Source of the DNA: a virus
Reading direction: 5' to 3' (one strand)
IMG/VR virus record: IMGVR_UViG_3300014039_000031
Coordinates: 7,725-71,724 of that record
DNA length: 64,000 bases
The notes under the pieces are model-generated. The model did no database searches. It saw only the letters and a program-made list of their open reading frames with translations, and had not been told where the DNA came from. Both the position numbers and the translations under genes were made by a program. Shown one piece after another: positions 29,159 to 49,677 of the stretch (positions within the stretch are counted from its first letter, which is position 1; every line of letters starts with the position of its first letter).

Positions 29159-29581
29159 TTATTTATTTAATTTTTCACGTGTCTTAATCTCATTCTCACA
29201 AAAAATATGAAAATTATTTTTCATATTCTGATACCTCTTTTGCTCTCGCCTATATTGTTCATTAATCATCTTTGCTTCACGGCAAGCAACATTGAAGGCA
29301 TCCATACCATCCGCCGCATTCATTTCACCAAGAGCAGATACAATATGATTGACTCCCTCAGCTCGTCCCTTCATAACCTTTAGACGCTCTGCGGCCATAG
29401 CCAAACGATTCTTATAATCCGCAATTTCCCAACCAATCCACTTATTGGCATTTTTCTTGTCCTCTTGGTCTGGTGCCGCATAAGAAGTAAACATTCCCCA
29501 TTTAGACGAACGAGTTACAGTTGCAACTTTAGTATCATCATCCCAAGAGCAATCAATAATTCGAGAGTGAGCCATTTGCAA
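29159..29581 (-). CDS. Hypothetical protein
   Basis: ORF. Confidence 0.4.
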   Translation of the reverse strand: MQMAHSRIIDCSWDDDTKVATVTRSSKWGMFTSYAAPDQEDKKNANKWIGWEIADYKNRLAMAAERLKVMKGRAEGVNHIVSALGEMNAADGMDAFNVACREAKMINEQYRREQKRYQNMKNNFHIFCENEIKTREKLNK

Positions 29582-30440
29582 TTTCCCTTTCTGTATATTT
29601 TGTCATAATATTAACTAAAAAATTATCTAAAAAGTCATTCGCGGCAATATTTTCTTTAGGTACACCAAAAGTAAAGCTAGGTTTCTCACTTTCAGCATCT
29701 TCAATAATAGCTTTCATGTTATGCACATATTCATCACAACGTGCTTTTGCTTCTTCTGGTGTTAAGGAAATCCTATAACGCTTAATATCCATCATTTCAT
29801 CTCGTACTTTATGAGAGTTAACGCGAATAGCTTTACTGAAAGGAACGCCTGAGCAATATTTAAAAATGAAATTATATAATCGAATAATATGCTGCAACTC
29901 TTTTGCCACATATCCATGCTTTTCAATCAATTCATGGTTAGCAGGAGAATCATGGCAGATTTTAGATGCTTTTTCACGAGCCATTCCAAGAGAAGAAGCA
30001 AGAACCTTATGCGGGTTAATGTTGGCAATTTCATCAACTTTAGAACAAAGAAGGTTCCATTCATTTTTATACACAGGGTTTACATAAACGTAATCTGTGC
30101 ATAAGATTTCAAGGAAATTAATATTGGCCTTGCGGAAAATGCGAAAATAGTCACGAATATCTTTTAATGTACAATGCTCATTATTGGCTAAAACTTCAAC
30201 TTTGTTAATAGATTTGCGGCCAAGGAACAAATCATCAAGTTTTGGGAATACAAGCATTTTTGTATCAACATCAGACGATTCATCAAAAAGACCATAATTC
30301 ATAGAGCCATTTGCCGCACAGACGAACATTTCCACTCCATCATATTTATGAGTCTCTTGGACTTCTTTTACATGAGCTTCAACACGTTTCTGAATGTCCC
30401 AATCATCTTTATACATATAATTCTCCTTTCTTTTAGACAA
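29553..30440 (-). CDS. Nucleotidyltransferase-fold protein (Pol-beta-like NTase)
   Basis: GS...DxD: CAANGSMNYGLFDESSDVDTK. Confidence 0.45.
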   Translation of the reverse strand: MSKRKENYMYKDDWDIQKRVEAHVKEVQETHKYDGVEMFVCAANGSMNYGLFDESSDVDTKMLVFPKLDDLFLGRKSINKVEVLANNEHCTLKDIRDYFRIFRKANINFLEILCTDYVYVNPVYKNEWNLLCSKVDEIANINPHKVLASSLGMAREKASKICHDSPANHELIEKHGYVAKELQHIIRLYNFIFKYCSGVPFSKAIRVNSHKVRDEMMDIKRYRISLTPEEAKARCDEYVHNMKAIIEDAESEKPSFTFGVPKENIAANDFLDNFLVNIMTKYTEREIANGSLSNY

Positions 30441-30470
30441 TTATATAATATTATATATATTTTGTCAAAT

Positions 30471-30494
30471 AAAAAAGGGAGTCCGAAGACTCCC
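30471..30494 (-). terminator. Intrinsic terminator after Ro60 gene
   Basis: gggagtc cgaa gactccc hairpin + U-run on minus strand. Confidence 0.6.
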
Positions 30495-30513
30495 CATCAA
30501 AAGAAAGAAGAAA

Positions 30514-31950
30514 TTAGATTGTATACTTTTCCTCGATATAATCAACCAACTCTCCGCCATCTTCAACGTACTTAAGCATCTTAAATACATTGTCGTTGAG
30601 CGCGGTCATTAGATGCATATCAGGATTGTTCGAATTCACAATCTGAGTATGGTAATTTCCAAGGTCAAAGCTATAGAGAGTCGTGCGGCCATAGTTAGCG
30701 CAATACTCGTTATAAGAATACATTGCCTTATCATATCCCGCAGTAGACCAAAAATATGAACGCTTATCCATTACCTGCATATCAGATACAACAAAAATGC
30801 GGTCATAATTCTTATTGCGAATCATACCGAAAGCCGGAGCAATATCAGTACCATATCCGCAATGGTCATTATCACACATTTCACGAATAATCTGGAAAGG
30901 ACCGGAAGCCTTAGCAAACGTCTTCGTCTTTGCATCGTTACCGAACTTCACAAAGTCACAGTTCCCATTGATATATAGGGCTGCTGCGTAGCAAGCCCCA
31001 ACTTCCTTGATGGAAAGAGAAGACTTGTCGCCATACATATCATCCATGGAGCCAGAAACGTCAAGCATGATAACAGAAGTTCCATCCAACTCAGGCATAT
31101 TGCCACAAGCAATACGGAAAGCGGTATCAAGAGCTGTAATCACTGCCATATTCTGAACACTGAGATTTCGATAGGCCGTATAAATCTGATAAGGGAACAC
31201 AAGAGACTTGTGGATAGAGACTTCATTGATAATCTGGTCAACAAGATTCTTCTTGACCCAAACGTCATCAACGTCACTGTGTAGAATGTTGTTGAGATTG
31301 CGGATAAGGGCAAGATAACCAAGTTTATGTCCCTCTACAAGTTCCTTCCAACTAGTGGTACCAGTAGAAATACCAACTTCCCAAGTCTCAGGGGCAGCAA
31401 GAGTACCAGCCTTATACTTATCAATCGTCTCGCTATGAGCATGAGTAATATTGATAAGGTCATACATATTATACTGCTTACCGTTCATCTTATACTTAGC
31501 AATCTGATAATCACCAAGAGAAGAAAGATAATCAGCACAGCCACGAACCAGCGCATGAGAACGCCTGCCGCCAAGCATATCTACAGCTGCAAAAATCTCA
31601 GCTGGATCATCCGCGCGATGCATGAAATTCTTATAGAACTCACGCTTCTGCTCAAACTTCTCAAAATTCAGGCGAGCTGCGACAAGCTGAGAAGCCGAAC
31701 GCATACCAAGCTCATTACGCGCAAACTTAGCGCACTTGGCCGCAAACACAGGGCCATACTGCTCAATGATAGCATCAGTCAGCTTGATAAAACGCTCCTG
31801 TTGCACATCTGCGGATTCATAGAAGGTATTACACATCTTAGACGAGAAAATGAAATTCATCCACTCCTCGACAGGATTCTTTACATAATTAAGCCCACCC
31901 TCAAAAGAACGCTCACGAGAGGGCTTCACATTTTCATTAAACTTTGCCAT
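30514..31950 (-). CDS. rsr: Ro60/Rsr ortholog (TROVE + vWA domains)
   Basis: vWA MIDAS DVSGSM...GYGTD...FVVSD; YLALIRNLNN ~ Ro60 LLRNLGKM; SLVFPYQI ~ Ro60 HPFHIL; FEGGLNY ~ SEGGTYY. Confidence 0.65.
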   Translation of the reverse strand: MAKFNENVKPSRERSFEGGLNYVKNPVEEWMNFIFSSKMCNTFYESADVQQERFIKLTDAIIEQYGPVFAAKCAKFARNELGMRSASQLVAARLNFEKFEQKREFYKNFMHRADDPAEIFAAVDMLGGRRSHALVRGCADYLSSLGDYQIAKYKMNGKQYNMYDLINITHAHSETIDKYKAGTLAAPETWEVGISTGTTSWKELVEGHKLGYLALIRNLNNILHSDVDDVWVKKNLVDQIINEVSIHKSLVFPYQIYTAYRNLSVQNMAVITALDTAFRIACGNMPELDGTSVIMLDVSGSMDDMYGDKSSLSIKEVGACYAAALYINGNCDFVKFGNDAKTKTFAKASGPFQIIREMCDNDHCGYGTDIAPAFGMIRNKNYDRIFVVSDMQVMDKRSYFWSTAGYDKAMYSYNEYCANYGRTTLYSFDLGNYHTQIVNSNNPDMHLMTALNDNVFKMLKYVEDGGELVDYIEEKYTI

Positions 31951-32083
31951 AACTACTTCTCTTTCTCTTGGAAGGAAATATACTTATAGGAATTAAATAC
32001 TGGTATCTATGATTTGAACAAAAGCACATTTAAGAAGAAAGGATACCTTTATATTTAATTCCTATAGGCATGTTTCCACACCT

Positions 32084-32224
32084 AAAATAAAATAAAATGA
32101 GGAGATGTTAAAAACAGTACACAAAAGATACCGACCTACCCGACGCAATGTCTGCGAAGGACGGAGTTGAACCGCCTTTCCGCATTTTCAAGGTGAAGTA
32201 ACTGTTTTTCTATCACTCATTTTG
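32084..32224 (-). ncRNA. Y-RNA-like ncRNA upstream of rsr: long bulged terminal stem + tRNA-like acceptor/T-arm minihelix
   Basis: Own -35/-10 promoter; 5' strand aaaatgagtgatagaaaaacagttac pairs with 3' gtactgtttttaacatctcctcatttt; tgcggaa-a-GGCGG TTCAACT CCGTC-cttcgca; U-run end. Confidence 0.5.
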
Positions 32225-32231
32225 TAATTAT

Positions 32232-32261
32232 ATTATACAATATAAATTTTTAAAAGTCAAT
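32232..32261 (-). promoter_or_regulatory. Sigma-A-type promoter (TTGACT-17-TATAAT) for the Y-like RNA/rsr
   Basis: Minus-strand ttgacttttaaaaatttatattgtataat. Confidence 0.55.
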
Positions 32262-32269
32262 AAAAATTT

Positions 32270-32506
32270 TTAAAAGATTTTTATTTTTCTAATATCTTCA
32301 TCGTCACCTGTATAATCATACCAAGTGACACACACTAAAAAGAATTCGTTTTCAGGAGATTCAGCCCATTCACAATAACTACGATATGCAATATAGGCTT
32401 CATCTAAATCATCCGTTTCTGTACTATCTATAACAGTACCATCAGTAATGCAAGCCTGTACAATAAAATCGTAAGGCTCTTCCATTAGAGCAAGAAAATC
32501 ACCCAT
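32270..32506 (-). CDS. Hypothetical acidic protein
   Basis: ORF. Confidence 0.4.
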   Translation of the reverse strand: MGDFLALMEEPYDFIVQACITDGTVIDSTETDDLDEAYIAYRSYCEWAESPENEFFLVCVTWYDYTGDDEDIRKIKIF

Positions 32507-34816: not shown

Positions 34817-35755
34817 TTAGTTGTTACTATTGGTCAGAATATATTCACGAATAGCCGCTTGCGCCAAACCTTTAATCTTTGCAAGATTAACACTGGCAAC
34901 CTTCTTCTTACGATAAAAGTCCCAAAAATTCTCTTCCATAAGCTCGTTCAAAACTTTTTGCATACACATACCGAAGAATTTACCATTGCGGCAATCAATT
35001 TCATCCATATCGAGAACGATAAGAACTTTATTAACTTCCTTTTCGACAAAAGCAGGCGTACAAAACTTATCTACAAACTCTTTTTCAGTATCATTTTGGT
35101 TGACATTGGTCTTCTTAGTGGTTTTATTATGATGCCATTCATCGCGTACAATTTTAGCAACTTGTGGATTTCCCCACGGGTCACGAAGAACTGGATAAGT
35201 TTTAATAACAATACCTTCACCAATAATACCAGAAGGAAGATTAAAAGTACAAGAATCTACATACTTATCAACATCATCCCAAGTCATATTATCAATGCGG
35301 GCAATGATAGGAACGCAACGATGATAAATTTTACTTACTACTGGATACCATACATCATAATCAATATATTCACCGCTGTCAGTATCAAAAACATCAAAGA
35401 TAAAGAAACCACCTTCAATATACTGTTTAATGCTACCGACAAACTTGCGGCCATCCACTCCGCCAAGCCATTCACCATAAATAATATAGCTAGGATTGTC
35501 AAGCAACCAATCCTTTAAAGCATTGATTTCAGTGTCATTAGAATTTGTAATATAGTATGCAAATCCAGCATTATCCTTCTCAATAGAAATCTCACGGGTA
35601 CGAGAGCCACACGCAATTTTGCCCTCATCATCTACCCAAATGCTGGAATTGCTTCCGTCCATTTTCGGCTGAATTAAAACCGACTTACAAATGAAACCCT
35701 GAACTTCATTACGAGTAGAGCGTTCAAGATGAATATACTTGTTGAAATGTGACAT
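34817..35755 (-). CDS. ATP-dependent RNA ligase, Rnl1-like (nucleotidyltransferase motif I KMDGS, motif IV EGIVIK)
   Basis: IQPKMDGSNSS; GEGIVIKTY. Confidence 0.55.
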   Translation of the reverse strand: MSHFNKYIHLERSTRNEVQGFICKSVLIQPKMDGSNSSIWVDDEGKIACGSRTREISIEKDNAGFAYYITNSNDTEINALKDWLLDNPSYIIYGEWLGGVDGRKFVGSIKQYIEGGFFIFDVFDTDSGEYIDYDVWYPVVSKIYHRCVPIIARIDNMTWDDVDKYVDSCTFNLPSGIIGEGIVIKTYPVLRDPWGNPQVAKIVRDEWHHNKTTKKTNVNQNDTEKEFVDKFCTPAFVEKEVNKVLIVLDMDEIDCRNGKFFGMCMQKVLNELMEENFWDFYRKKKVASVNLAKIKGLAQAAIREYILTNSNN

Positions 35756-36304
35756 GTTTTCCTCTTTCTCTCTTTCAACAATTACATTATATCATGCATT
35801 TTATAAAATTGCAAGAAAAATTTTTCTTCTCTTTTCTGTTTTCTTATAGTTATTTTTGCGTAGCAAAAATAACGTAATTCTTTTATCTTTTCTCTTCTTT
35901 ATAATTTTTACGTCACTGTAAGTGACGTAAAAGATAAATTAATTTAAAGATAATTTATTTTATAATTATATAAATAATATTATATTTGTCAATATTATTT
36001 CTTATTATATATAAAAATTATAAAGAATAAATAAACTAATTTAAAATAATTAATTAATTACATTAGTTTTACATTATATACTATATATTATATTAATAAT
36101 ATTCTTATTATATATAATCTTATATAATTAGTCTTAAGGGGTAAACCCCTTAACAACCCAGTTATTAATTATAACGTAATTTTTCATTTTGTCAAGAGTT
36201 CTGTAAAAAATTTTTTATAACAAAATTTATGCTAAAAATATTGTTGACTAATTTAATTTTATAGTTTATAATGTTCTCAACACGCAAACAAAAGAAAGGA
36301 AAAT
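35756..36304. other. AT-rich divergent intergenic control region with perfect palindromes (tacgtcact gtaa gtgacgta at 35898..35925; taaggggt aaa ccccttaa at 36134..36154)
   Basis: No ORFs; strand switch point. Confidence 0.5.
36244..36272 (+). promoter_or_regulatory. Promoter TTGACT-17-TATAAT
   Basis: Consensus hexamers. Confidence 0.55.
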
Positions 36305-36688
36305 ATGGAACAGATTACAGCAGAAGCAGCTCGCCGCATTCGACAGCAGAGTGTAGTAGATAAAAAGAAAAAGGAACTGGAAGAAGCTCAAAATATTCCA
36401 TTTTTTGAAGAGCTAACTGAGAAAGTAAAAGACGCGGCGTTCAATGGCGAAAGTAATGTACAGATTGGGCCGCATGAATCAGAATATTACCAAGAGGTTA
36501 TCGATAGTGGCAAGATTGTTCATAGTAAAGAGAAGCAACTTCCGCTAGACTGGAAAAAAGTTTTCAAGGTTTTTGAAGAGTCTCTTGGATATAAAGTTTC
36601 AATTGTGCAATATCCTGCGCAATTTCTTAAGTCCAATGGCCTTGATATGGTTACACTCAATATTGAGACTGCAACTGTATATTGGTAG
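36305..36688 (+). CDS. Hypothetical protein
   Basis: ORF with RBS. Confidence 0.5.
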   Translation: MEQITAEAARRIRQQSVVDKKKKELEEAQNIPFFEELTEKVKDAAFNGESNVQIGPHESEYYQEVIDSGKIVHSKEKQLPLDWKKVFKVFEESLGYKVSIVQYPAQFLKSNGLDMVTLNIETATVYW

Positions 36689-36694
36689 TAAAAT

Positions 36695-37216
36695 ATGAAG
36701 CACACGTTAATTATGATGGCAGGCCCTGCGAGTTCAGGAAAATCTGTATTTGCAAAAATCATTAAAGATTCACATGATGATTGCGTTGTAGTTTCATATA
36801 AACAGATGGCAAAAGCAGCACTGGTCGCAAAAGAACCGCAACATTATGTAGATAAGCGATATATCGAAGTATTAAATAATATGCTTGAAACACATGAATA
36901 TGTAATTGCTGATAATTACAATATCAATGCAAATGAACGCAAAAAAATATTTGACAATATAAATATTGATAAATATAATATTATTTGTGTTTGGGTGGAA
37001 ACGCCTCTTAATGTTGCATTGAAGCGAAATGCACAACTAGATGAAAAGTGGCGAAGGTCGGAAGACTCTATAAAGCAAATGTATAAAATTAAAGTATCGC
37101 CGCAAGAACAAGAGCCTTTTAAAAAAGTAATTTTCATTTCAGAGCAAATGAATTATGCTATTGGAACAGATACAATGGAAATTCAAAATATTTTAGATAC
37201 TCTTAAGGCTCTATAG
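36695..37216 (+). CDS. P-loop kinase, polynucleotide kinase (Pnk kinase-domain)-like
   Basis: GPASSGKS; VIADNYNINANERKK and VALKRN resemble T4 Pnk kinase domain. Confidence 0.5.
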   Translation: MKHTLIMMAGPASSGKSVFAKIIKDSHDDCVVVSYKQMAKAALVAKEPQHYVDKRYIEVLNNMLETHEYVIADNYNINANERKKIFDNINIDKYNIICVWVETPLNVALKRNAQLDEKWRRSEDSIKQMYKIKVSPQEQEPFKKVIFISEQMNYAIGTDTMEIQNILDTLKAL

Positions 37217-37268
37217 TACTTTGACAATTGAATATTTTATTTTAATTATTATTTAATAAAAGGAAATA

Positions 37269-38189
37269 ATGTTAAAATTTATTTGTATTTTAATTGCGGC
37301 AATGTTTATTGTTAATTTTCTTTGTAGTTTTACTAAAGAATATCGAGAAAGTAATAATGTTGGCATTAATCGAGCCATTTCAGTTGTAATTGCAGTAATT
37401 CTAATTGGTATTTCATGTGTATATACACAAGACGTAGGCGAAGTTGTTGTACTTCGCTCTATTGGTGGTAGTCTCTCTGGTTACACAAGTGAAGCTGGTT
37501 TCCATTTTACTGCACCATGGAATGATACAATTTCGTTCGATACCCGTAACAATTTAATTAACTTTCATGGTTCAAAAACAGACTACTCTTATGATGGAGG
37601 TTCTGCGGAAGGCCCATATGTAACTGTAAACGATAAGTCTGGCTCCAAGGCGAATGTAGATATACAAGTCAATTACAGTCTAGACTCAAAGACTGCTGAG
37701 TATCTATATACTGAATACGGAACGCAAGAGAACTTTACTAAGAACTATGCTTCCAATGACCTTCGCTCTGTAGCGCGTGAGGTGTCTGGTCAGTTTGACA
37801 CAATCACTATGTTAACTGACCGCTCTCAATATACGAAAGCAGTCCAAAAAGCTCTAGAAAAGAAGTGGAAGAAAATTGGCCTAACTGTTGAGCAAGTCAG
37901 TGTGCAAGACATTTCTTATGCTAAATCTATTACAGATGCCTATGCTGATTCTCAGGCAGCAGAAGTAGAAAAGGCTAAGGCTCAGAATCAACAAGAAACT
38001 GCCAAGATTAAGGGAGACACTAAAGTAATTGAAGCTACAAAGGAAGCAGAAGCTAATAAAGTTCTTAATGATTCATTAACTGATAATGTTCTTTCTCAGC
38101 AATATATTGAAGCTCTAAAAGAAATGTCTAAGAATGGCAATACTGTAGTAGTCCCACAAGGTTCAACTCCAGTAGTATCAACTAAATAA
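37269..38189 (+). CDS. SPFH/band-7 domain membrane protein
   Basis: TM then VVVLRSIGG...GFHFTAPWNDTISFDTR SPFH pattern. Confidence 0.55.
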   Translation: MLKFICILIAAMFIVNFLCSFTKEYRESNNVGINRAISVVIAVILIGISCVYTQDVGEVVVLRSIGGSLSGYTSEAGFHFTAPWNDTISFDTRNNLINFHGSKTDYSYDGGSAEGPYVTVNDKSGSKANVDIQVNYSLDSKTAEYLYTEYGTQENFTKNYASNDLRSVAREVSGQFDTITMLTDRSQYTKAVQKALEKKWKKIGLTVEQVSVQDISYAKSITDAYADSQAAEVEKAKAQNQQETAKIKGDTKVIEATKEAEANKVLNDSLTDNVLSQQYIEALKEMSKNGNTVVVPQGSTPVVSTK

Positions 38190-38194
38190 TCAAT

Positions 38195-38232
38195 AGCCTC
38201 AAAGTTTTTCTTGACTTTGAGGCTATTTTTTT
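38195..38232 (+). terminator. Intrinsic terminator whose loop carries the -35 (ttgact) of the next promoter
   Basis: agcctcaaag/ctttgaggct + T-run. Confidence 0.6.
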
Positions 38233-38271
38233 ATATACTTATGCTAACAGAATCCAAGAGGAAGAGAGATT

Positions 38272-38451
38272 ATGGATGCAAATGTAGCAATGGTATGTGT
38301 CACGGTTATTTGCGTCGCGGCAATTATAGCTAAATGCTATATGGAACATTTGGCTGAAACTACTCGACGCATTAGGGCGAACGCACCAGAGCACCAACGC
38401 AATATCGATAACGTTCCATACAATATGAACAATATCTGGAAGAAGAAGTAA
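38272..38451 (+). CDS. Small membrane protein (59 aa)
   Basis: MDANVAMVCVTVICVAAIIAK...; followed by two more short TM ORFs 38451..38537 and 38537..38656. Confidence 0.35.
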   Translation: MDANVAMVCVTVICVAAIIAKCYMEHLAETTRRIRANAPEHQRNIDNVPYNMNNIWKKK

Positions 38452-38708
38452 TGTTTAATATTATTTTATCATTTGCCGCAGGTTTTATAATTGGATATGC
38501 GGTGTGTTGTATTCTTACTATTGGAAAGGATAACTAATGGCAGATTGCATTTTTGTTGCATATATCCTTGCTGTAATTGGATATGCATATTTTTCATTTA
38601 GCCGCAAATTTGAAAATATTCGATTCAATTTATATCGAATGTATCTTAATTTTTAGTTGACTATTGACTTTATATAAATTATAATATAAACCAATAGAAA
38701 GAGGAATT

Positions 38709-38897
38709 ATGCGTGATATTAATCGTATATATGATATTGTTATAAAAATTCAAGACCTGTGGGAGCACTATTCAGACCAACGTTTAGGTCAACTTATTGA
38801 AAATTATCTTGTAAAAGATGGAGAAGATTTGTTCTATATAGAAGATGAAGAACTTTCTCAACGTTTAACTGATAAACTCTCATGGATTGATTGGTAA
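38709..38897 (+). CDS. Hypothetical protein
   Basis: ORF with RBS aagaggaattatg. Confidence 0.45.
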   Translation: MRDINRIYDIVIKIQDLWEHYSDQRLGQLIENYLVKDGEDLFYIEDEELSQRLTDKLSWIDW

Positions 38898-39133
38898 AGA
38901 TGAATATTACAGTGAAAGATTTTATTGATTGGCTTCGTATGGATACCGCTAATACCGGAAGTATGATTCGCTTTGAAGCATCAAATATTCCGTGCTTAAA
39001 GAGTCCAAGCATATATTTTAAAGATATTGATGATAATATGACCATTGAATTAGAAAATGCATATGTACATTATTTTCATGTAGAATATAATGAAGATTAT
39101 AGAATCTTTACTTTTGTAATTTATATTTTGTAA
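38891..39133 (+). CDS. Hypothetical protein
   Basis: ORF. Confidence 0.4.
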   Translation: MVKMNITVKDFIDWLRMDTANTGSMIRFEASNIPCLKSPSIYFKDIDDNMTIELENAYVHYFHVEYNEDYRIFTFVIYIL

Positions 39134-39149
39134 TTTATGTGGAGTTTTA

Positions 39150-39719
39150 ATGATTACTCAATATTCTCATGGTATCAATACAGAAGCAAATCCAAGCAAC
39201 AATGTAATCGATATTTACAAAAAGTGGAGTGCGGAAGAAGTGCGGGCTAGCCTTCAACCAAATCGTACTTCACTTGTAAATATTTGTCTCAATCTTGACC
39301 ATGGATTTAACGTTGGTTCTATTATTCGCGCATCAAATTGTTTTCTTGCTAAGGAGACTTATGTGGTTGGCCGCAAACGCTTTGACGCTCGTGGGGGTGT
39401 TGGATCCAAAAAATACGAACGCGTATATCACGCAGATACATTAGATGAAGTCATTGAAGTTCTGCATCCTCTTGGATATACCATTTTTGCTGTAGATAAT
39501 GTAGAAGAATATAATCCGCAGAATATTTTTGATGCTGATATTCCAATGAAATCTGCTTTTGTATATGGAAGTGAGGGCGATGGTTTGCCAAAAGATGCTA
39601 TTGACAAATGTGATGAAATGGTATATATTAGGCAATATGGAAGTATTCGCTCACTAAATGTGGCACAAGCTGCCGCATGTTGTATGATGGAATATTCTAG
39701 ACGTTATCAAATGAGGTAG
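39150..39719 (+). CDS. SpoU/TrmH-family RNA 2'-O-methyltransferase
   Basis: NVGSIIRAS, VYGSEGDGL, SLNVAQAAACCMMEY motifs. Confidence 0.75.
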   Translation: MITQYSHGINTEANPSNNVIDIYKKWSAEEVRASLQPNRTSLVNICLNLDHGFNVGSIIRASNCFLAKETYVVGRKRFDARGGVGSKKYERVYHADTLDEVIEVLHPLGYTIFAVDNVEEYNPQNIFDADIPMKSAFVYGSEGDGLPKDAIDKCDEMVYIRQYGSIRSLNVAQAAACCMMEYSRRYQMR

Positions 39720-39721
39720 CT

Positions 39722-39952
39722 ATGAAATGGGAAGATTTATCACCAGAAGCAAGACTATATATTAAATTACAGCCGCATGTTTTTGCTAAGACTACGATTG
39801 CATCATTAATTGCTCTAATGGATAAATCAGTTTCTCTCCAAGAGAAAGCAAATTATATCGACCGTGCGGCAGATATTTTAAAGCTATGCGCAGTTTCAAT
39901 CAAAAGCCATCCAGAGTTTGAAATTGTTATTGACAATACTCATAGTACGTAG
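39722..39952 (+). CDS. Hypothetical protein
   Basis: ORF. Confidence 0.4.
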   Translation: MKWEDLSPEARLYIKLQPHVFAKTTIASLIALMDKSVSLQEKANYIDRAADILKLCAVSIKSHPEFEIVIDNTHST

Positions 39953-39988
39953 TATTATATAAAATAAAGATAAGAAAGGATGTTTTAG

Positions 39989-40432
39989 ATGGCTGAGTTG
40001 ACTAAGAGCGACTATAGATACTTTGAAATGGCACATAGGGAAGCTGAAAAATCTACCTATGATACCTTTCATCTTGGATGCGTTCTAGTCTATAAAGGTC
40101 ACATTATCGGTCGCGGAAGCAATTCCTCTAAAACTTCACCTATTCAGGCCAAATATAATCAGTTCAGGCAGTTCCGATATGGGCCGCAATTAGTAGCACA
40201 TAAAAACCATGCTGAAATCAGCGCTATTAAGAGTGTACCTTATCAGGTAGATAAAGAGACTGATTGGTCAAAGGTTTCATGTTACATTTATCGTATCTCT
40301 AAGGGTCGAAAAAAGAATGTGGGTTTAGCTCGACCTTGTGAGGGATGTTTTCAGGCACTTATCGATAAAGGTATTCGTAACATCTACTATACTACAAATA
40401 ATGGCTATGCGTATGAGGAAATTCTTGTATAA
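39989..40432 (+). CDS. Cytidine/deoxycytidylate deaminase family zinc enzyme
   Basis: HAEISAI ... PCEGCFQAL. Confidence 0.65.
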   Translation: MAELTKSDYRYFEMAHREAEKSTYDTFHLGCVLVYKGHIIGRGSNSSKTSPIQAKYNQFRQFRYGPQLVAHKNHAEISAIKSVPYQVDKETDWSKVSCYIYRISKGRKKNVGLARPCEGCFQALIDKGIRNIYYTTNNGYAYEEILV

Positions 40433-40511
40433 TGAATATTGTTAGTATTGCTGTAATTATAATTTTTATGTTTTCTGTCTATTGCTATTATAATGGAAAG
40501 CGATTTAAATA

Positions 40512-40814
40512 ATGAAGTGTATTCTAATTTCAGATAAAGAAATGCAGGATTACCTAAAGCATTTTAATGAATCAAATGGTTCAAATTATAGCTTTGTATG
40601 GTGCCCTGAATATTGTAATCTGGTTGATTTTACCAATCATCATCGTCTTGATTATAATAATTCATTACAGGCGATTTTATATGAATTTAAATATGATAAT
40701 ATTGAACTTAAAGCGGTAATTAATCTTGCTATCGAGGAAGGAACTCCTTTAAGCGATGTATGCGGCCTTTATCATGATACTAGCCGCAAAACCTATATTC
40801 TTACTTGGAATTAA
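40512..40814 (+). CDS. Hypothetical protein
   Basis: ORF. Confidence 0.4.
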   Translation: MKCILISDKEMQDYLKHFNESNGSNYSFVWCPEYCNLVDFTNHHRLDYNNSLQAILYEFKYDNIELKAVINLAIEEGTPLSDVCGLYHDTSRKTYILTWN

Positions 40815-40847
40815 AGCTATTAAGTAGATTCAAACAGTCTACTAAAT

Positions 40848-40922
40848 GGGCCATTAGCTCAGTTGGATTAGAGCCTGAAACTTCTATTTTCAAAGTCGCG
40901 CGTTCGAGTCGCGCATGGCTCA
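40848..40922 (+). tRNA. tRNA-Arg (anticodon TCT)
   Basis: Manual cloverleaf: GGGCCAT/ATGGCTC acceptor, GCTC/GAGC D stem, TGAAA-CTTCTAT-TTTCA anticodon arm, GCGCG-TTCGAGT-CGCGC T arm; flanked by inverted repeat cagtctacta/tagtagactg. Confidence 0.8.
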
Positions 40923-40969
40923 CTTAGTAGACTGGCAATAAGTTAGTCTATGTTATTTAAAACAGCATT

Positions 40970-41152
40970 TTGAAAGGATTTATTGTGAAAATTCGTGATT
41001 GGGAAGACTTCGATGAAGAGGATAACTTTGAAAAATTTTCCCATAAGACAAAACTAATTCGCCAGCGCAAAGATGATACTTATAAAAGTAAGCGTCGTGA
41101 GAAGCGTGAGCGTCAAGAATTTGAAGAAAATGCTGCGAAGGGCGGGGAGTAA
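40970..41152 (+). CDS. Hypothetical small basic protein (non-ATG start likely)
   Basis: ORF. Confidence 0.3.
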   Translation: MKGFIVKIRDWEDFDEEDNFEKFSHKTKLIRQRKDDTYKSKRREKRERQEFEENAAKGGE

Positions 41153-41236
41153 TTCCTGCCCTTTTTTATTATAAAAAATAGTTGCCATTTGCCACATAAT
41201 CATATATAATATATTTACCAAAAGAAAGAGGTAAGT

Positions 41237-42172
41237 ATGAATGAAGTAGATATGCTCCGCAATGATTCTCTTGTGCGGGAAAAGGATTTGGGAAACGGAA
41301 TCTCGTCTTTCAATTTTTCCAATAAGTGCTTTTGGGATAAGAAGTGGACTACGGAGTCAATCAAGGCTCGCGGATTATTCTGTGATGTTAAAAATAACAA
41401 TGTTGTGGCACGTTCTTATAATAAGTTTTTCAATATTGGAGAGCGTCCTGAGACTGAAATGCTGAATCTTCGTACTACTTTTGCATATCCTGTGCAGGCA
41501 TATGTGAAGTATAATGGTTTTTTGGCAATCGTCTCAGCAGATAAGGATAATCCCGATAAGTTGTTCATCGCATCCAAGAGCACTAATGAAGGCCCGTTTG
41601 CGGGATACATTAAGAACATTATTAACTCTATGCTGAGCGAAGACACGCAAAAGGATTTTGCAAACACCTTGCATAATCTTAATATCTCTGCTGTGTTTGA
41701 GTGTATTGACCCAGCGCATGACACGCATATTGTAGAATATTTCAGTCCGCATTTAGTTATGCTTGATTGTATTTATAATTCCTTTGAATATAAGCACATG
41801 TCATATGAGAATATGAGAGAATTTGCATGTAAGTTTGGTTTTTTGTTTAAGGTTCGTTTTTCCATTTTAACAGATTGGGAAGATTTTACAAGTTTTATTG
41901 ATTGGCATAAGGATGATAATGGGATTGAAGGATTTGTGTTTGAAGATGCTAATGGGTTCATGGTAAAGTATAAAACTTTATGGTATCGTTACTGGAAGCA
42001 GGTGCGTGGCGTTTTGCAGCAGGTCTGGAACGGACGTGATATTGATTCAATCAAGAATATCAATAACAAGATTAAGCCAGAGCACAAGCAGCCGCTTCTT
42101 GATTTCGTAGCTTCATGCCGCAATCGTGATGCGTGTCCATCAGTAATTGAATTCCGCAACTCTTTATCTTAA
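41237..42172 (+). CDS. Ligase/nucleotidyltransferase-superfamily protein (RNA ligase-like; motif I KYNG, motif IV-V EGFVFEDANGFMVKYK)
   Basis: Motif inspection. Confidence 0.4.
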   Translation: MNEVDMLRNDSLVREKDLGNGISSFNFSNKCFWDKKWTTESIKARGLFCDVKNNNVVARSYNKFFNIGERPETEMLNLRTTFAYPVQAYVKYNGFLAIVSADKDNPDKLFIASKSTNEGPFAGYIKNIINSMLSEDTQKDFANTLHNLNISAVFECIDPAHDTHIVEYFSPHLVMLDCIYNSFEYKHMSYENMREFACKFGFLFKVRFSILTDWEDFTSFIDWHKDDNGIEGFVFEDANGFMVKYKTLWYRYWKQVRGVLQQVWNGRDIDSIKNINNKIKPEHKQPLLDFVASCRNRDACPSVIEFRNSLS

Positions 42173-42178
42173 TTTTAG

Positions 42179-42208
42179 TTTGACTCTTGGTATAATATAT
42201 TATATAAT
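42179..42208 (+). promoter_or_regulatory. Early promoter TTGACT-N-TATAAT with upstream T-tract
   Basis: ttttagtttgactcttggtataatatattatataat. Confidence 0.55.
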
Positions 42209-42239
42209 ATAATTGTTCCAAGAGAGGAAAGGAAGTTAT

Positions 42240-42425
42240 ATGACTGCTACTTACACTACCGCCGTTCTTCGTCTCGCCAGCTATTACGTGGACAATAAGG
42301 ATGATATTACCGGAGATTATATTGATGGGGCAGTTATGACTATCAGTAATGTCTATGGGGTGCGTGACGAGCGCATTCGCCGAGACATGTATAAGATGAT
42401 TGACATTTTGATTGATGGAGAGTAA
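42240..42425 (+). CDS. Hypothetical protein (start at second Met after RBS)
   Basis: RBS agagaggaaagg. Confidence 0.45.
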   Translation: MTATYTTAVLRLASYYVDNKDDITGDYIDGAVMTISNVYGVRDERIRRDMYKMIDILIDGE

Positions 42426-42642
42426 AATGCTTTCATGGAATTGGGATATTAACAATCCTATTCGGCTTGGTATGGAGGACGAGCATATGCAGGAAAGCGT
42501 TTACAAGTGTATCCAAGAGTTCGAAAATGAATATATGGGGCATCCATCTTGTGAAGAGTTTGAAGATACCTTGGAGCGCAACGGTATTGACCCGTCTGAC
42601 ATGCCTAATTGCTATTGGAACGATTTAGCTCAATATCTTTAA
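42412..42642 (+). CDS. Hypothetical protein
   Basis: ORF. Confidence 0.4.
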   Translation: MMESKMLSWNWDINNPIRLGMEDEHMQESVYKCIQEFENEYMGHPSCEEFEDTLERNGIDPSDMPNCYWNDLAQYL

Positions 42643-42648
42643 TTCTAT

Positions 42649-42683
42649 GGGAGATTGTCTATTGACAGTCTCCCTATTTTTTT
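42649..42683 (+). terminator. Intrinsic terminator with embedded -35 ttgaca
   Basis: gggagattgtc/gacagtctccc + T-run. Confidence 0.6.
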
Positions 42684-42719
42684 ATATAATATAAAAAGTA
42701 TATATTGAAAGGATGATGT

Positions 42720-43532
42720 ATGATTAAACTTGCAATTCCCTTTCAATTGAATGGAGAGTTAAATGATGATGTAAAAGAATTCAATATTCTTTTTTACAAA
42801 TCTCGAAATTCAATTGAAGATTTGATTGAATTCGTTCAAAAGTATGAGAATACTCGCATTAATCTGGAATTCCCAGAAGGAATTCATATGCCGACAGTCA
42901 AATCAATTAATAAAGTCTCTGATAATATTTATATTAAGGTTGCTCCTGCGGATATTCTTAAAGTTGTAGAGCTTAAAGAAAATAATTTTAAATTCTTTTT
43001 TAATCAAGATATGCCGGTGTCAACATACACAGCACTTGATGCCTTTTTCCGCATGGGTGTATCAGACGTATACATTGCAGATGACCTATGCTATAATTTA
43101 ACAGAAGTGCGGCAAATGTGTGAAAGTCATAACGTACAAATGCGGCTAGTCCTTAATAAGATTCCATGCACTACTTTTGACCGTGGAGTTAATCCCAAGA
43201 GTCCAATCTATATGCCTAAAGACTTTGAGCTTTTGGATGGATATTTTGATGTATTTGAATTTGAGTGCGGCCTACCGTATGACTGGGCTAAGTTCGATGT
43301 TCTATATCGAGCATGGTTTATCAATCATTATTGGCATGGTCAAATGAGCGAAATAAATGAAGATGTAGACCAGAATTTTCATTGTGACGCAATCCATCCT
43401 GATTTTACCCGTAATAAACTAAATTGTGAACGTAGATGCTGCAAAAGGGTGTCAAATAATTGCCGCAAATGTGAAGATTTTCTTGAACTTGGTGAAGTAT
43501 TGAAAGCTAAGAGAATTCGATTTACAAATTAA
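42720..43532 (+). CDS. Hypothetical protein with Cys-rich C-terminus
   Basis: ORF. Confidence 0.45.
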   Translation: MIKLAIPFQLNGELNDDVKEFNILFYKSRNSIEDLIEFVQKYENTRINLEFPEGIHMPTVKSINKVSDNIYIKVAPADILKVVELKENNFKFFFNQDMPVSTYTALDAFFRMGVSDVYIADDLCYNLTEVRQMCESHNVQMRLVLNKIPCTTFDRGVNPKSPIYMPKDFELLDGYFDVFEFECGLPYDWAKFDVLYRAWFINHYWHGQMSEINEDVDQNFHCDAIHPDFTRNKLNCERRCCKRVSNNCRKCEDFLELGEVLKAKRIRFTN

Positions 43533-43534
43533 TT

Positions 43535-43570
43535 GGGCAAATGATTATAAACTTTTGCCCATATTTTTTA
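43535..43570 (+). terminator. Intrinsic terminator
   Basis: gggcaaa...tttgccc + T-run. Confidence 0.6.
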
Positions 43571-43627
43571 TAAATATATAAGCAATCGTCTAACTGTCGT
43601 ATAGGATTTAAGGAGAATTTTATTCAA

Positions 43628-44407: not shown

Positions 44408-44415
44408 GAAAGTAG

Positions 44416-44754: not shown

Positions 44755-44767
44755 AAGGAGAAAATCA

Positions 44768-45208: not shown

Positions 45209-45274
45209 AATTTATCTTGCAAACCCATATATAAAGTTATATAATATACTTAAAGAAAAGGAAGGAGATACAGG

Positions 45275-45619: not shown

Positions 45620-45632
45620 GTAATATTTTTTC

Positions 45633-45661
45633 TTGACAAAAAGGAAAATTAACCATATAAT
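45633..45661 (+). promoter_or_regulatory. Promoter TTGACA-17-TATAAT
   Basis: Consensus. Confidence 0.55.
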
Positions 45662-46870: not shown

Positions 46871-46899
46871 TATTTTTCATTTTTACTTTTAAAAATTAT

Positions 46900-47429: not shown

Positions 47430-47466
47430 CAAGGCTAAGTCAGGTATCATTCTTTCTTAATTTTAT

Positions 47467-47600
47467 ATGCGTGATAGGGATTCAGTTACTTCATATCAAT
47501 AGCAGAGATATAGGCTGTCGGTTCGAATCCGACCATCTACGGATGTAGCTCAACAGGTAGAGCGATGTCATTTTATAGTCTGAATCCAAGATTTCCGCAT
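47467..47600 (+). ncRNA. Y-like ncRNA paralog with T-arm and D-arm-like tRNA mimic
   Basis: 5' atgcgtgatagggattcagttacttc; closing helix atgcg/ccgcat and ggattcag/ctgaatcc; GTCGG TTCGAAT CCGAC T-arm; GCTC aacaggta GAGC D-arm-like. Confidence 0.45.
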
Positions 47601-47608
47601 ATTTTTTC

Positions 47609-49137: not shown

Positions 49138-49150
49138 ATTGTACTTTATA

Positions 49151-49244
49151 ATGCGTGACAGAAAATCAGTTACTTCTATTTTAAAAATAAGATATTGGTT
49201 CGATTCCAATTACCGCATAAAAACTGATTTTAGTATTTCCGCAT
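49151..49244 (+). ncRNA. Y-like ncRNA paralog (compact)
   Basis: atgcgtgacagaaaatcagttacttc (22-mer shared with the rsr-linked RNA at 32084..32224); aaaatcagtt/aactgatttt and atgcg/cgcat helices; ATTGG TTCGATT CCAAT T-arm; T-run after. Confidence 0.45.
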
Positions 49245-49677
49245 TTAATTTTTATTCTGGTATGTGATTGAGTTTTAGTTACTTCGAAGATATATATTAT
49301 GTTTTAAATTAATTAAAATTTAAATTAAAAGAACCAGCTTTTACGTCAGACTATAACGGCGTAACAAAAAACTGGTAACTTATACTAAAACTAGTATTTC
49401 CATACCTTCCTCTTTCTCTTGGATAAGTGATTGACCGCATAGTTACTTCATATTTTTGGTATAATATAATTCAGTCTATGTGATATTATTTCCTTATCTT
49501 AAACATTTTGCGTGATTGGTTCAAGAGATACTTCATAAATATTTTATGACATTTTTTTGCTCTCTCTTGGGCATACTTTCCGCTTTAATAGGGCCTTATG
49601 GTCCTATTTTTTTTATTGACTTTATACATACAATATTATATAATATATATAAAGAAAGAGAGAAAGAGGTTTTTTAT

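What the first reader, a model, noticed from the sequence alone, without database searches (positions are those of the whole stretch)
30514..32261. Phage Ro60/Rsr ortholog with a promoter-driven Y-RNA-like ncRNA immediately upstream
Sequence evidence for the protein: ORF 30514..31950 combines a TROVE-like N-terminal region with a vWA domain whose MIDAS motifs match Ro60 (DVSGSM, GYGTD, FVVSD); LIRNLNN and FPYQI resemble the Ro60 LRNLGKM and HPFHIL motifs. Sequence evidence for the RNA: 20-250 nt upstream on the same (minus) strand lies a consensus promoter (32232..32261). It is followed by a ~140-nt ORF-free unit bounded by a U-run. The first 26 nt (aaaatgagtgatagaaaaacagttac) pair with the last 27 nt (gtactgtttttaacatctcctcatttt), giving a long helix with an internal loop and a bulge. 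In between is a tRNA-like minihelix, tgcggaa-a-GGCGG-TTCAACT-CCGTC-cttcgca, which is a 7-bp acceptor-like stem stacked on a canonical T-arm. This architecture (Ro-binding bulged stem plus tRNA-mimicking effector module) is that of bacterial Y RNAs (YrlA class). Inference: phage-encoded Ro60/Y-RNA RNPs have not been studied functionally. This locus sits between a nucleotidyltransferase gene and an RNA ligase, which suggests an RNA surveillance or repair role during infection.
Basis: partly seen in the sequence, partly recalled or inferred. Interest (0 to 1): 0.85.

Follow-up and report, generated by a model that had tools for sequence, protein, structure and literature searches.

The report
Phage Ro60 protein with Y-like RNAs
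This phage encodes a Ro60-type RNA-binding ring protein and at least six small structured RNAs predicted to dock on it, a pairing already known from other phages and bacteria, here in an undescribed group of ~140-kb phages.

Summary
ORF 30514..31950(-) is a Ro60/Rsr ortholog: TROVE domain, intact vWA MIDAS, and Ro60 structures as the 13 best fold matches. The RNA at 32095..32222(-) is real. It has a consensus promoter, a closing bulged helix, a T-arm and a U-run. A covariance model built from 12 related RNAs, without this one, scores it 59.8 bits (E about 8e-10).

Three corrections:
The conserved layout is YrlA-like: T-arm, then a small hairpin, then a degenerate D-arm.
- The window holds five more RNAs of this family on the + strand, in the tRNA cluster (47465-47602, and four in tandem at 49149-49587). 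The first is a complete YrlA-type tRNA mimic.
- Phage Ro60/Y RNA pairs are not unstudied. They were predicted in 22 phages (Chen 2014) and characterised for Thermus phage phiLo (Hu 2025).

The family shares GUGAU..(G)UUACUUC...UUUCC instead of the published GNCGAA motif, and all units fall below Rfam's YrlA threshold. Expression, processing and Rsr binding are inferred, not shown.

Verdict: new member of a known kind, of moderate interest.

The parts
30514..31950 (-). rsr: Ro60/Rsr ortholog, 478 aa (TROVE HEAT-repeat ring plus vWA domain with MIDAS)
   Evidence: Pfam TROVE 46.4 bits. PHROG 850 109 bits. Profile hit to phiLo Ro60 9l5y at E 4e-35 and to Xenopus Ro60 at 3e-5. AlphaFold model pLDDT 79; the 13 best Foldseek PDB hits are all Ro60, TM 0.6-0.72. 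MIDAS residues invariant.
32232..32260 (-). Sigma-70-type promoter TTGACT-17-TATAAT. The predicted start near 32225 lies 2 nt before the RNA's closing helix.
   Evidence: Conserved in L046 and L047. In the L002-L020 clade the same promoter sits directly before the rsr leader.
32095..32222 (-). The finding's Y-like RNA. It has a lower bulged helix AAAAUGAG(U)GA / UCCUCAUUUU, an upper helix, single-stranded GUUACUUC, a T-arm at 32160-32176, a hairpin CGCA/UGCG at 32144-32156, and a degenerate D-arm.
   Evidence: Model R1, built without it: 59.8 bits, E 7.6e-10, full-length alignment with the D-arm deleted. Ortholog L046 scores 50.5 bits. The T stem shows one compensatory pair and one G-U to A-U change. 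MFE z = -2.1 to -2.7.
32084..32094 (-). U-rich linker (UUUUAUUUUAUUUU with the end of the helix). It is a possible leaky stop or processing site.
   Evidence: Read from the sequence. Not called as an intrinsic terminator by the scan.
31974..32077 (-). Long leader hairpin between the RNA and the rsr ribosome-binding site. It is not a member of the Y-like family.
   Evidence: MFE -34.4 kcal/mol, z = -5.3. Four compensatory pairs between the window and L046. No R1 hit. Its base GGAAA/UUUCC persists as a mini-hairpin in the L002-L020 clade.
30476..30495 (-). Intrinsic-terminator-like hairpin after rsr, followed by the promoter of the next gene (30440-30468)
47465..47602 (+). Complete YrlA-type Y-like RNA: bulged helix, GUUACUUC, T-arm GUCGG-UUCGAAU-CCGAC, hairpin CAUC/GAUG, D-arm AGCUCAACAGGUAGAGC
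   Evidence: Rfam YrlA RF02553 31.8 bits, E 1.6e-5 in a 181-nt search, below the gathering score of 69. R1 114.6 bits, but it was in the training set. Fold.
49149..49246 (+). Y-like RNA with a T-arm only; first of four tandem units after tRNA-Leu
   Evidence: R1 56.3 bits, E 4e-9, not in the training set. Sequence.
49258..49407 (+). Y-like RNA with a non-tRNA-like distal module
   Evidence: R1 31.1 bits, E 5e-4. 8/8 upper and 5/5 lower pairing.
49421..49499 (+). Short Y-like RNA (YrlB-like, no tRNA-like module)
   Evidence: R1 33.9 bits, E 1e-4..
49506..49587 (+). Short Y-like RNA with AUACUUC in place of UUACUUC; the weakest member
   Evidence: R1 24.1 bits, E 0.012. MFE z = -3.3.
49587..49608 (+). 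Intrinsic-terminator-like hairpin with a U-run that closes the four-unit array
29553..30440 (-). RlaP-type (RNA-ligase-associated Pol-beta) nucleotidyltransferase, directly downstream of rsr
   Evidence: Pfam PF10127 24.7 bits against a cut-off of 23. PHROG 388 51 bits.
34817..35755 (-). RNA ligase (PF09414), 2.6 kb upstream in the same orientation
   Evidence: Pfam 64.9 bits. PHROG 548 135.6 bits. Synteny kept in L046 and L047.
41237..42172 (+). T4 Rnl1-type RNA ligase in the tRNA / Y-like RNA region
   Evidence: Pfam PF09511 137 bits.
36695..37216 (+). AAA_33 / KTI12-like P-loop kinase, a possible polynucleotide kinase
   Evidence: Pfam PF13671 42.6 bits and PF08433 29.5 bits. The function is inferred.

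Best explanation
The phage encodes a Ro60 (Rsr) ring protein and at least six cognate Y-like RNAs.

**Anatomy, shown computationally**
- Each RNA closes its 5' and 3' ends into a helix with one unpaired U: 5'-NNG(U)GA / 3'-NNC-CU.
- Above that come an internal loop, a covarying 8-bp upper helix, and a conserved single-stranded (G)UUACUUC.
- This is the anatomy of the Ro-binding module of Y RNAs.
- The distal modules differ between units. One is a full permuted tRNA mimic (T-arm, hairpin, D-arm) at 47465-47602. The rsr-adjacent RNA has a T-arm, a hairpin and a decayed D-arm. One unit has a T-arm only, and three have plain hairpins.

**Expression, inferred**
- The rsr-adjacent RNA is transcribed from the promoter at 32260-32232 as the 5' part of the rsr transcript.
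- It is then released by cleavage or partial termination at the U-rich linker, as described for M. smegmatis YrlA/YrlB (PMC4201824).
- The array RNAs are made with the tRNAs and cut out.

**Mechanism, inferred by analogy with D. radiodurans, S. Typhimurium and phage phiLo**
- Rsr binds the bulged helix.
- The distal module gates the ring and tethers it to partners: exoribonucleases such as PNPase, or tRNA-recognising enzymes.

**Likely role, inferred**
- The surrounding genes are an RlaP nucleotidyltransferase, two RNA ligases, a kinase, a SpoU methylase and seven tRNAs.
- This points to surveillance, repair or protection of tRNA and other structured RNA during infection, probably against host RNA-cleaving defences.
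For: **Protein**
- TROVE domain, full-length Ro60 fold and invariant MIDAS residues.

**RNA family**
- The 5' motif occurs 5 times in the window against 0.07 expected.
- 28 of 72 relaxed 5' motifs have a qualified 3' partner, against 1.2% with shuffled downstream sequence.
- In 35 units, 96% of cells are paired and 13 of 16 pairs show double changes. The covariation score is 0.92, against 0.18 shuffled and at most 0.15 with partners slid.
- RNAalifold on 12 full units finds on its own the bulged helix, upper helix, T-arm, AS hairpin and D-arm. 23 of 31 pairs have compensatory changes.
- Model R1 finds exactly six units in the 64-kb window, including the untrained rsr-adjacent one at 59.8 bits. 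Nothing else scores below E = 0.01; a partial tRNA match at E 0.013 comes next.

**Link to Rsr**
- Units lie directly upstream of rsr, on the same strand, in at least 16 viral loci and 3 MAG loci whose Rsr is 28-62% identical.
- 6 of the 10 true-positive loci found by DNA motif alone come from contigs already known to encode Rsr.

**Link to known YrlA**
- Unit 47465 hits Rfam YrlA at 31.8 bits.
- The RNA that Rfam's YrlA model hits upstream of the Ro gene of Gordonia phage Rabbitrun scores about the same with Rfam (31.5 bits). It scores 42.6 bits with R1 and shares GGUUACUUC.

**Precedents**
- PMC4201824, PMC12135203 and PMC7824862.

**Context genes**
-.
Against: - There is no expression, processing or binding data for this phage. 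Everything beyond sequence and structure conservation is inferred.
- The published Rsr-contact motif GNCGAA(N)G / CGAA is absent.
- No unit reaches Rfam's YrlA gathering score, and the finding's RNA gets no Rfam hit at all.
- The 3' partners used for the covariation count were picked by complementarity, which inflates the percentage paired.
- The closest large clade (L002-L020, Rsr 69-71% identical) has no RNA next to rsr, so adjacency is dispensable.
- The finding's RNA has only one ortholog for comparison (L046) and lacks a D-arm, so it may be a decaying copy.
Confidence: 0.75

Rival explanations
1. The element is a cis-acting 5' leader of the rsr mRNA, not a released trans-acting RNA. It would be a structured leader that stabilises the message, or an operator through which Rsr represses or activates its own translation.
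For: - The only strong promoter for rsr lies upstream of the RNA. In the L002-L020 clade the same promoter abuts the rsr leader directly, so here rsr must be transcribed through the RNA.
- No intrinsic terminator is called between the RNA and rsr.
- A second conserved hairpin follows, z = -5.3.
Against: - Five RNAs with the same helix and motifs lie 15-17 kb away on the other strand, not in front of rsr. One array ends in its own terminator.
- In M. smegmatis, Y RNAs are cut from a joint precursor with rsr (PMC4201824). Co-transcription therefore does not argue against release.
- This reading is not exclusive of the main one.
Confidence: 0.15
2. The units are tRNA-derived relics or tRNA-like decoys that act without Rsr. 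For example, they could be bait for host anticodon nucleases or for tRNA-modifying enzymes, and lie near rsr only because both sit in RNA-metabolism regions.
For: - T-arms and D-arms are tRNA-like, and five units sit in the tRNA cluster.
- Some relatives carry nearly complete, non-permuted tRNA-like inserts (L026 2632, L052 5418).
Against: - Three of the six window units have no tRNA-like part, yet they keep the bulged helix and UUACUUC. The constrained part is therefore the Y-type helix.
- ARAGORN and Rfam tRNA do not call any unit in the window.
- Units co-occur with rsr across divergent clades.
Confidence: 0.07
3. The units are a repeated intergenic element with a DNA-level or transcriptional role, such as a terminator, insulator or recombination repeat, and not a functional RNA.
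For: - There are several copies in intergenic DNA.
- The closing helices are followed by U-rich runs at 32084-32094 and 47600-47608.
Against: - Helix sequences differ completely between copies while pairing is kept, and the loop motifs are invariant. This is the signature of selection on RNA structure plus a protein contact, not of a DNA repeat.
- The units are strand-specific and co-oriented with the flanking genes.
Confidence: 0.03

Closest known systems
Bacterial and phage YrlA/YrlB Y RNAs with Rsr (Chen et al. 2014, PMC4201824; Rfam RF02553)
   Same: - Encoded next to rsr on the same strand.
- The ends pair into a helix with an internal loop.
- A conserved YUAY (here UUAC) follows the upper helix.
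- The tRNA-like domain is permuted: T-arm, then AS hairpin, then D-arm.
- Several Y RNAs per genome, of which at least one is tRNA-like.
- Co-transcribed with rsr.
   Different: - The 5' loop motif is GUGAU(N)G, not GNCGAA(N)G.
- All units score below Rfam's threshold: 31.8 bits at best against 69.
- There are six units, five of them 15-17 kb from rsr, outside the 4-kb neighbourhood used in 2014.
- The rsr-adjacent unit has lost its D-arm.
Thermus phage phiLo Ro60 with Yrl1/Yrl2 (Hu et al. 2025, PMC12135203; PDB 9KOP, 9L5Y)
   Same: - A phage-encoded Ro60 with Y-like RNAs upstream of the gene.
- It is the best sequence and fold match of the window's protein (E 4e-35; TM about 0.7).
   Different: - The proteins are only about 21-26% identical.
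- The phiLo Yrls were picked by their CGAA motif, which is absent here.
- R1 gives no convincing hit upstream of phiLo Ro60.
- The host and phage type are unrelated.
Gordonia phage Rabbitrun Ro-like protein, with the RNA that Rfam's YrlA model hits and its tandem units upstream
   Same: - Three to four tandem units upstream of the Ro gene, each with GUUACUUC.
- One unit has a T-arm and a D-arm.
- A nucleotidyltransferase gene and a tRNA cluster lie nearby.
   Different: - The lower-helix motifs are AUGCGAAGG and GUUCC.
- The Rsr proteins are about 24% identical.
S. Typhimurium rsr-yrlBA-rtcBA RNA repair operon (PMC7790460)
   Same: Rsr and Y RNAs are linked genetically to an RNA ligase and to damage of tRNA.
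   Different: - The ligases here are ATP-dependent Rnl-type enzymes (PF09414, PF09511), not RtcB.
- No RtcA or RtcR was found among the ORFs scanned.
- The setting is a phage, with sigma-70-type promoters.
Metazoan Y RNAs (Rfam RF00019)
   Same: A helix formed by the two RNA ends, with a single unpaired pyrimidine on the 5' strand next to G-C pairs.
   Different: No sequence similarity and no Rfam hit. The distal modules are different.

Membership tests
Ro60 / Rsr protein (TROVE + vWA) | TROVE domain above Pfam's curated threshold | tested here: met
   PF05731 46.4 bits against a cut-off of 23. The match covers only residues 176-262.
Ro60 / Rsr protein (TROVE + vWA) | Full-length similarity to solved Ro60 structures (HEAT-repeat ring closed by a vWA domain) | tested here: met
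   Profile A1 against PDB: 9l5y E 4e-35 over residues 12-395, and 1yvp 3e-5. AlphaFold model pLDDT 79. Foldseek ranks 1-13 are all Ro60, TM 0.60-0.72, with about 490-560 aligned columns.
Ro60 / Rsr protein (TROVE + vWA) | MIDAS motif DxSxS ... T ... D in the vWA domain | tested here: met
   DVSGSM (D297, S299, S301), GYGTD (T368) and VSD (D390) are invariant in 13 homologs that are 54-78% identical to the window protein.
Ro60 / Rsr protein (TROVE + vWA) | Binds Y RNA on the outer ring surface and single-stranded RNA in the central hole | not testable with these tools
   Needs EMSA, RIP or a structure.
YrlA (Rfam RF02553; Chen 2014) | Reaches Rfam's gathering score of 69 bits | tested here: not met
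   The finding's RNA gets no hit at E <= 10. The best unit in the window, 47465-47602, scores 31.8 bits. Control: the RNA upstream of the Ro gene of Gordonia phage Rabbitrun also scores only 31.5 bits, so the threshold is strict for phage members.
YrlA (Rfam RF02553; Chen 2014) | Encoded within about 4 kb of rsr on the same strand | tested here: met
   The finding's RNA ends 145 nt upstream of the rsr start, on the same strand. The five other units do not meet this: they lie 15.5-17.6 kb away on the opposite strand.
YrlA (Rfam RF02553; Chen 2014) | T-arm with a tRNA-like T-loop | tested here: met
   GGCGG-UUCAACU-CCGUC aligns to the T-arm of model R1. The ortholog has CACGG/CCGUG, which gives one compensatory pair.
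YrlA (Rfam RF02553; Chen 2014) | D-arm (AGCUCA...GGUAGAGC) 3' of the AS hairpin | tested here: not met
   In the finding's RNA only GGUAGGUCGGUAUC remains, and R1 aligns it as a deletion of the D-arm. The feature is met in unit 47465-47602.
YrlA (Rfam RF02553; Chen 2014) | AS hairpin between the T-arm and the D-arm | tested here: inconclusive
   CGCA-GACAU-UGCG is conserved in the window and L046 but never varies. R1 aligns it with two non-standard pairs.
YrlA (Rfam RF02553; Chen 2014) | GNCGAA(N0-1)G motif near the 5' end, the proposed Rsr contact | tested here: not met
   All 36 units examined carry GUGA(U/C) at that position, with no CGAA.
YrlA (Rfam RF02553; Chen 2014) | Conserved YUAY at the start of the V region | tested here: met
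   UUAC lies within the near-invariant (G)UUACUUC. The motif is shared with the Gordonia phage units.
YrlA (Rfam RF02553; Chen 2014) | Bound by Rsr; carries tRNA-type modifications; substrate of tRNA enzymes | not testable with these tools
   Experimental.
   There are 6 pairs in the window's minimum-energy fold. L046 has no complementary 5' strand, and the consensus fold drops this stem. ARAGORN and Rfam tRNA give no call here.
Metazoan Y RNA (RF00019) | Terminal helix with a bulged pyrimidine; match to the Rfam model | tested here: inconclusive
   A bulged-U helix is present and conserved. There is no Rfam hit. This is similarity of design only.

The most novel reading that the evidence does not exclude
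One Ro60 ring is served by a phage-encoded library of at least six docking RNAs. They share one Rsr-binding helix of a new sequence type, GUGAU / UUACUUC / UUUCC. Their distal modules range from a full tRNA mimic to plain hairpins. The phage could thereby direct the same protein to several different partners, or present several decoys to host tRNA-targeting defence nucleases. The array would be matured together with the phage tRNAs. In that case the rsr-adjacent RNA could also act as an autoregulatory operator of rsr.
Probability: 0.2. Interest if true: 0.7.

Novelty: new member of a known kind. Interest (0 to 1): 0.4.

Why it matters
**What is known**
- Ro60 with tRNA-like Y RNAs is an established RNP in bacteria and phages.
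- What it does during phage infection is still open. Only phiLo has been studied, and only in vitro.

**What this locus adds**
- A large, previously unannotated group of ~140-kb phages from metagenomes. Related contigs binned into gut Bacilli and Clostridium MAGs hint at a Firmicutes host.
- In these phages the RNP sits inside a dense RNA-repair and tRNA region.
- The RNAs escape Rfam's YrlA model.
- The number of RNAs per genome, at least six, is higher than usually reported.

**Practical value**
- A covariance model and motif that find these RNAs.
- The observation that Y RNAs can lie far from rsr, so surveys limited to 4 kb around rsr undercount them.
- A natural series of distal modules on one common docking helix, suited to testing what each module recruits.

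Tried and rejected
1. **Rfam.** The gathering-threshold scan of the whole window and the E <= 10 scan of 31900-32320 gave nothing for the finding's RNA. The 47600-49700 scan gave only tRNAs.
2. **DNA similarity.** The locus has no DNA match in 50,697 phage records, so there is no sequenced close relative.
4. **The leader hairpin.** I considered the hairpin 31974-32077 as a seventh, degenerate Y unit (GGUGUGG ... UUUCCUUCC). It is rejected: R1 does not hit it and the 5' motif is not kept in L046.
5. **Listeria phage P100.** I tested it as a possible expressed homolog, because the CKA15 paper (PMC12282133) speculates about Y RNAs near an Rsr-like gene. tblastn finds no Rsr and there is no family member. 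R1's best hit, 27 bits, falls in the tRNA cluster. This was a dead end.
6. **The IMG/VR motif scan.** Only 10 loci hold true units. The scan cannot give a census.
7. **Alignment of half-units.** The MAFFT alignment was shifted at the 3' end. I replaced it with anchor-trimmed constructs of equal length.
8. **phiLo, the 635-kb uncultured phage and the crAss-like cr111_1.** R1 gave no convincing hit near their Ro genes. The GUGAU-type family therefore does not extend to them.
Full report
**1. The protein**

ORF 30514..31950(-) encodes 478 aa.
- Pfam TROVE scores 46.4 bits against a cut-off of 23, over residues 176-262 only.
- PHROG 850 'RNA-binding protein' covers residues 9-463 at 109 bits.
- A profile of 13 homologs hits the solved Ro60 of Thermus phage phiLo (9l5y/9kop, E 4e-35, residues 12-395). 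It also hits Xenopus Ro60 (1yvp, E 3e-5).
- An AlphaFold model (pLDDT 79, pTM 0.72) has Ro60 structures as its 13 best Foldseek matches in the PDB. These are phiLo, Xenopus, human and Deinococcus Ro60, with TM 0.60-0.72 over the whole length.
- The protein is therefore a Ro60/Rsr ortholog.
- 894 relatives exist in metagenome proteins at E <= 1e-10. The best 120 are 53-100% identical, and many come from contigs of about 130-146 kb.
- Ro-like proteins are already annotated in 93 phage records, all below 30% identity to this one.

**2. The RNA at the given coordinates**

- A TTGACT-17-TATAAT promoter lies at 32260..32232(-). It puts the predicted start about 2 nt before a helix formed by AAAAUGAG (32223-32216) and CUCAUUUU (32101-32094).
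- A U-rich run follows.
- Only ORFs of 30 aa or less overlap the region, apart from a 220-aa antisense frame ending at 31989.
- Rfam gives no hit, even at E <= 10.

**3. Relatives show it belongs to a family**

I fetched 45 viral loci, two assembly loci and four MAG loci that encode Rsr homologs.

- Upstream of rsr, many divergent clades carry one to four tandem units. Each begins NNN-GUGAU.G-[8 nt]-(G)UUACUUC and ends [8-nt complement]-N3-6-(A)UUUCC-NNN.
- The lower helix is 5'-NNG(U)GA paired with 3'-NNC-CU, so one U is unpaired. This design is the same as the bulged helix of animal Y RNAs.
- In 35 distinct units, 96% of the cells of the 16 modelled pairs are standard pairs. Thirteen pairs show changes on both sides. 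The covariation score is 0.92, against 0.18 for shuffles and at most 0.15 for slid partners.
- The 3' partners were chosen by complementarity, which inflates the percentage paired. As a control, the same procedure finds a partner for 28 of 72 loosely defined 5' motifs but for only 1.2% of trials with shuffled downstream sequence.
- RNAalifold, run on a plain MAFFT alignment of 12 full-length units, recovers five elements on its own: the bulged helix, the upper helix, a T-arm, a hairpin and a D-arm. Of the 31 pairs, 23 have compensatory changes.
- The order T-arm, hairpin, D-arm is the permuted tRNA-like domain that defines YrlA (PMC4201824).

**4. Test of the finding's RNA**

- A covariance model (R1) was built from those 12 units. 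It excluded the finding's RNA and its ortholog.
- With filters off, R1 scores 32095-32222(-) at 59.8 bits, E 7.6e-10, aligned end to end.
- Both helices, GUUACUUC, the T-arm and the hairpin match, and the D-arm is aligned as a deletion.
- The ortholog in L046 (Rsr 78% identical) scores 50.5 bits. Its T stem reads CACGG/CCGUG instead of GGCGG/CCGUC, which is one compensatory pair and one G-U to A-U change.
Both sequences instead keep CGCA-GACA(U)-UGCG directly after the T-arm, the place of the YrlA 'AS' hairpin.
- After that hairpin comes GGUAGGUCGGUAUC, a decayed D-arm.

**5. Five more units in the window**

- The 5' motif occurs five times in the window, against 0.07 expected.
- R1 finds six units and nothing else below E = 0.01. 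A partial tRNA match at E 0.013 comes next.
- The new units are on the + strand, in the tRNA cluster:
  - 47465-47602 is a complete YrlA-type RNA. It hits Rfam YrlA at 31.8 bits, E 1.6e-5 in a local search, below the gathering score of 69.
  - 49149-49246 has a T-arm only.
  - 49258-49407, 49421-49499 and 49506-49587 have no tRNA-like part.
- The four tandem units follow tRNA-Leu and end at a terminator-like hairpin at 49587-49608.
- The three units without a tRNA-like module still keep the helix motifs and UUACUUC. Those features therefore belong to the common, presumably Rsr-binding, module.

**6. Link to Rsr and to known YrlA**

- The L002-L020 clade (Rsr 69-71% identical) has no unit next to rsr. 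There the promoter abuts a mini-hairpin and the ribosome-binding site.
- A motif scan of IMG/VR nevertheless found units elsewhere on four of those same contigs. Two hold one unit each. The other two hold six units each, a five-unit cluster plus a separate unit about 1.1 kb away. Where both positions can be placed, the units lie roughly 15-18 kb from rsr, as in the window.
- Six of the ten true-positive loci from that scan lie on contigs already known to encode Rsr.
- Control: in Gordonia phage Rabbitrun, Rfam's YrlA model hits an RNA upstream of the annotated Ro-like gene at 31.5 bits. R1 scores it 42.6 bits (E 9e-7). It and its three neighbouring units carry GGUUACUUC, but with AUGCGAAGG / GUUCC in the lower loop.
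- Rfam's threshold is therefore too strict for phage members.
- The window's RNAs are YrlA/YrlB-class RNAs with a different loop motif. The published GNCGAA(N)G / CGAA motif is absent.

**7. Transcription and context**

- rsr has no strong promoter of its own, so it is probably read through the RNA.
- Between them lies a long hairpin (31974-32077, z = -5.3) with four compensatory pairs against L046. It is not a family member.
- Joint transcription with later cleavage is what was shown for M. smegmatis YrlA, YrlB and rsr (PMC4201824). Here it is inferred.
- Downstream of rsr, after a terminator and a promoter, lies an RlaP-type nucleotidyltransferase.
- 2.6 kb upstream lies a PF09414 RNA ligase.
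- The + strand region with the other units also encodes a T4 Rnl1-type ligase, a P-loop kinase, a SpoU methylase, a deaminase and seven tRNAs.
- This association of TROVE proteins and a tRNA-like partner with RlaP and RNA ligases in phages is already described (PMC7824862).

**8. Mechanism**

- Shown here: a Ro60-fold protein, and six RNAs with a conserved, covarying Y-type docking helix and variable distal modules.
- Inferred from D. radiodurans, S. Typhimurium and phiLo (PMC4201824, PMC12135203): Rsr binds the helix, and the distal module gates the ring and tethers partners such as PNPase or tRNA enzymes.
- Inferred from the gene context: a role in repair, surveillance or protection of tRNA and other structured RNA during infection.

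**9. Novelty**

- Phage Ro60 with Y-like RNAs was predicted in 22 phages in 2014 and studied structurally and biochemically in 2025.
- This is a new member of a known kind.
- The less ordinary points are the GUGAU-type motif, the six units per genome, their location in the tRNA cluster far from rsr, and the range of distal modules.
- The host is unknown. Four related contigs are binned in gut 'Bacilli' or 'Clostridium' MAGs. The promoters are sigma-70 consensus.

Noticed in passing
window 49044-49150 (+): An ORF-free stretch between tRNA-Leu and the first array unit folds as a cloverleaf: a 7-bp closing stem and four hairpins. One hairpin has the loop CUGUAAA, which would read as a GUA (Tyr) anticodon. 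The T-loop is non-canonical. Neither ARAGORN nor Rfam calls it, and the fold z-score is not significant (-0.45).
   Followed up: partly
window 48104-48270 (+): About 170 nt without an ORF directly follow a perfect TTGACA-17-TATAAT promoter (48075-48103). There is no Rfam hit and the fold is no better than shuffles (z = -0.09). This may be another ncRNA or a long leader.
   Followed up: partly
window 36300-46900 (+): A dense set of RNA-related genes lies among the tRNAs: an AAA_33/KTI12-like kinase (36695-37216), a SpoU methylase (39150-39719), a cytidine/dCMP deaminase-like protein (39989-40432) and a T4 Rnl1-type RNA ligase (41237-42172). The same stretch also encodes an SPFH/Band-7 protein (37269-38189) and an ORF with a NUMOD1 domain (46145-46870).
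   Followed up: partly
L002-L020 (viral contigs), about 60 nt before rsr: The closest large clade lacks the rsr-adjacent RNA and most of the leader hairpin. Its promoter is followed at once by GGAA-AGUU-UUCC and the conserved UUCCAAGAGAAAG leader. Compared with the window this looks like two clean deletions, or two insertions in the window.
   Followed up: partly
L027 2403-2660; L026 2632-2767; L052 5418-5551: Unusual family members. One unit has about 120 nt inserted in the hairpin between the T-arm and the D-arm. Two others carry a near-complete, non-permuted tRNA-like insert (D-arm, anticodon-like arm, T-arm) inside the Y-type helix. Rfam tRNA scores one of these at 39.5 bits.
   Followed up: no
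L168 (Gordonia phage Rabbitrun) 1745-2230: Four tandem Y-like units, each with GUUACUUC, lie upstream of the annotated Ro-like gene. None is annotated in the record. A nucleotidyltransferase gene and a tRNA cluster flank the locus.
   Followed up: partly
L052 (IMGVR_UViG_3300028591_004246), 5400-11310: This is a 93-kb viral contig. Strict criteria find six units within 6 kb and R1 finds about eleven hits. No rsr lies in the 13 kb fetched. Whether the contig encodes Rsr elsewhere is unknown.
   Followed up: no
window 51310-51401 (+): ARAGORN calls a tRNA-Ser (tga) that Rfam's tRNA model did not report at gathering score. Rfam reports a tRNA at 45781-45851 that ARAGORN does not call.
   Followed up: no
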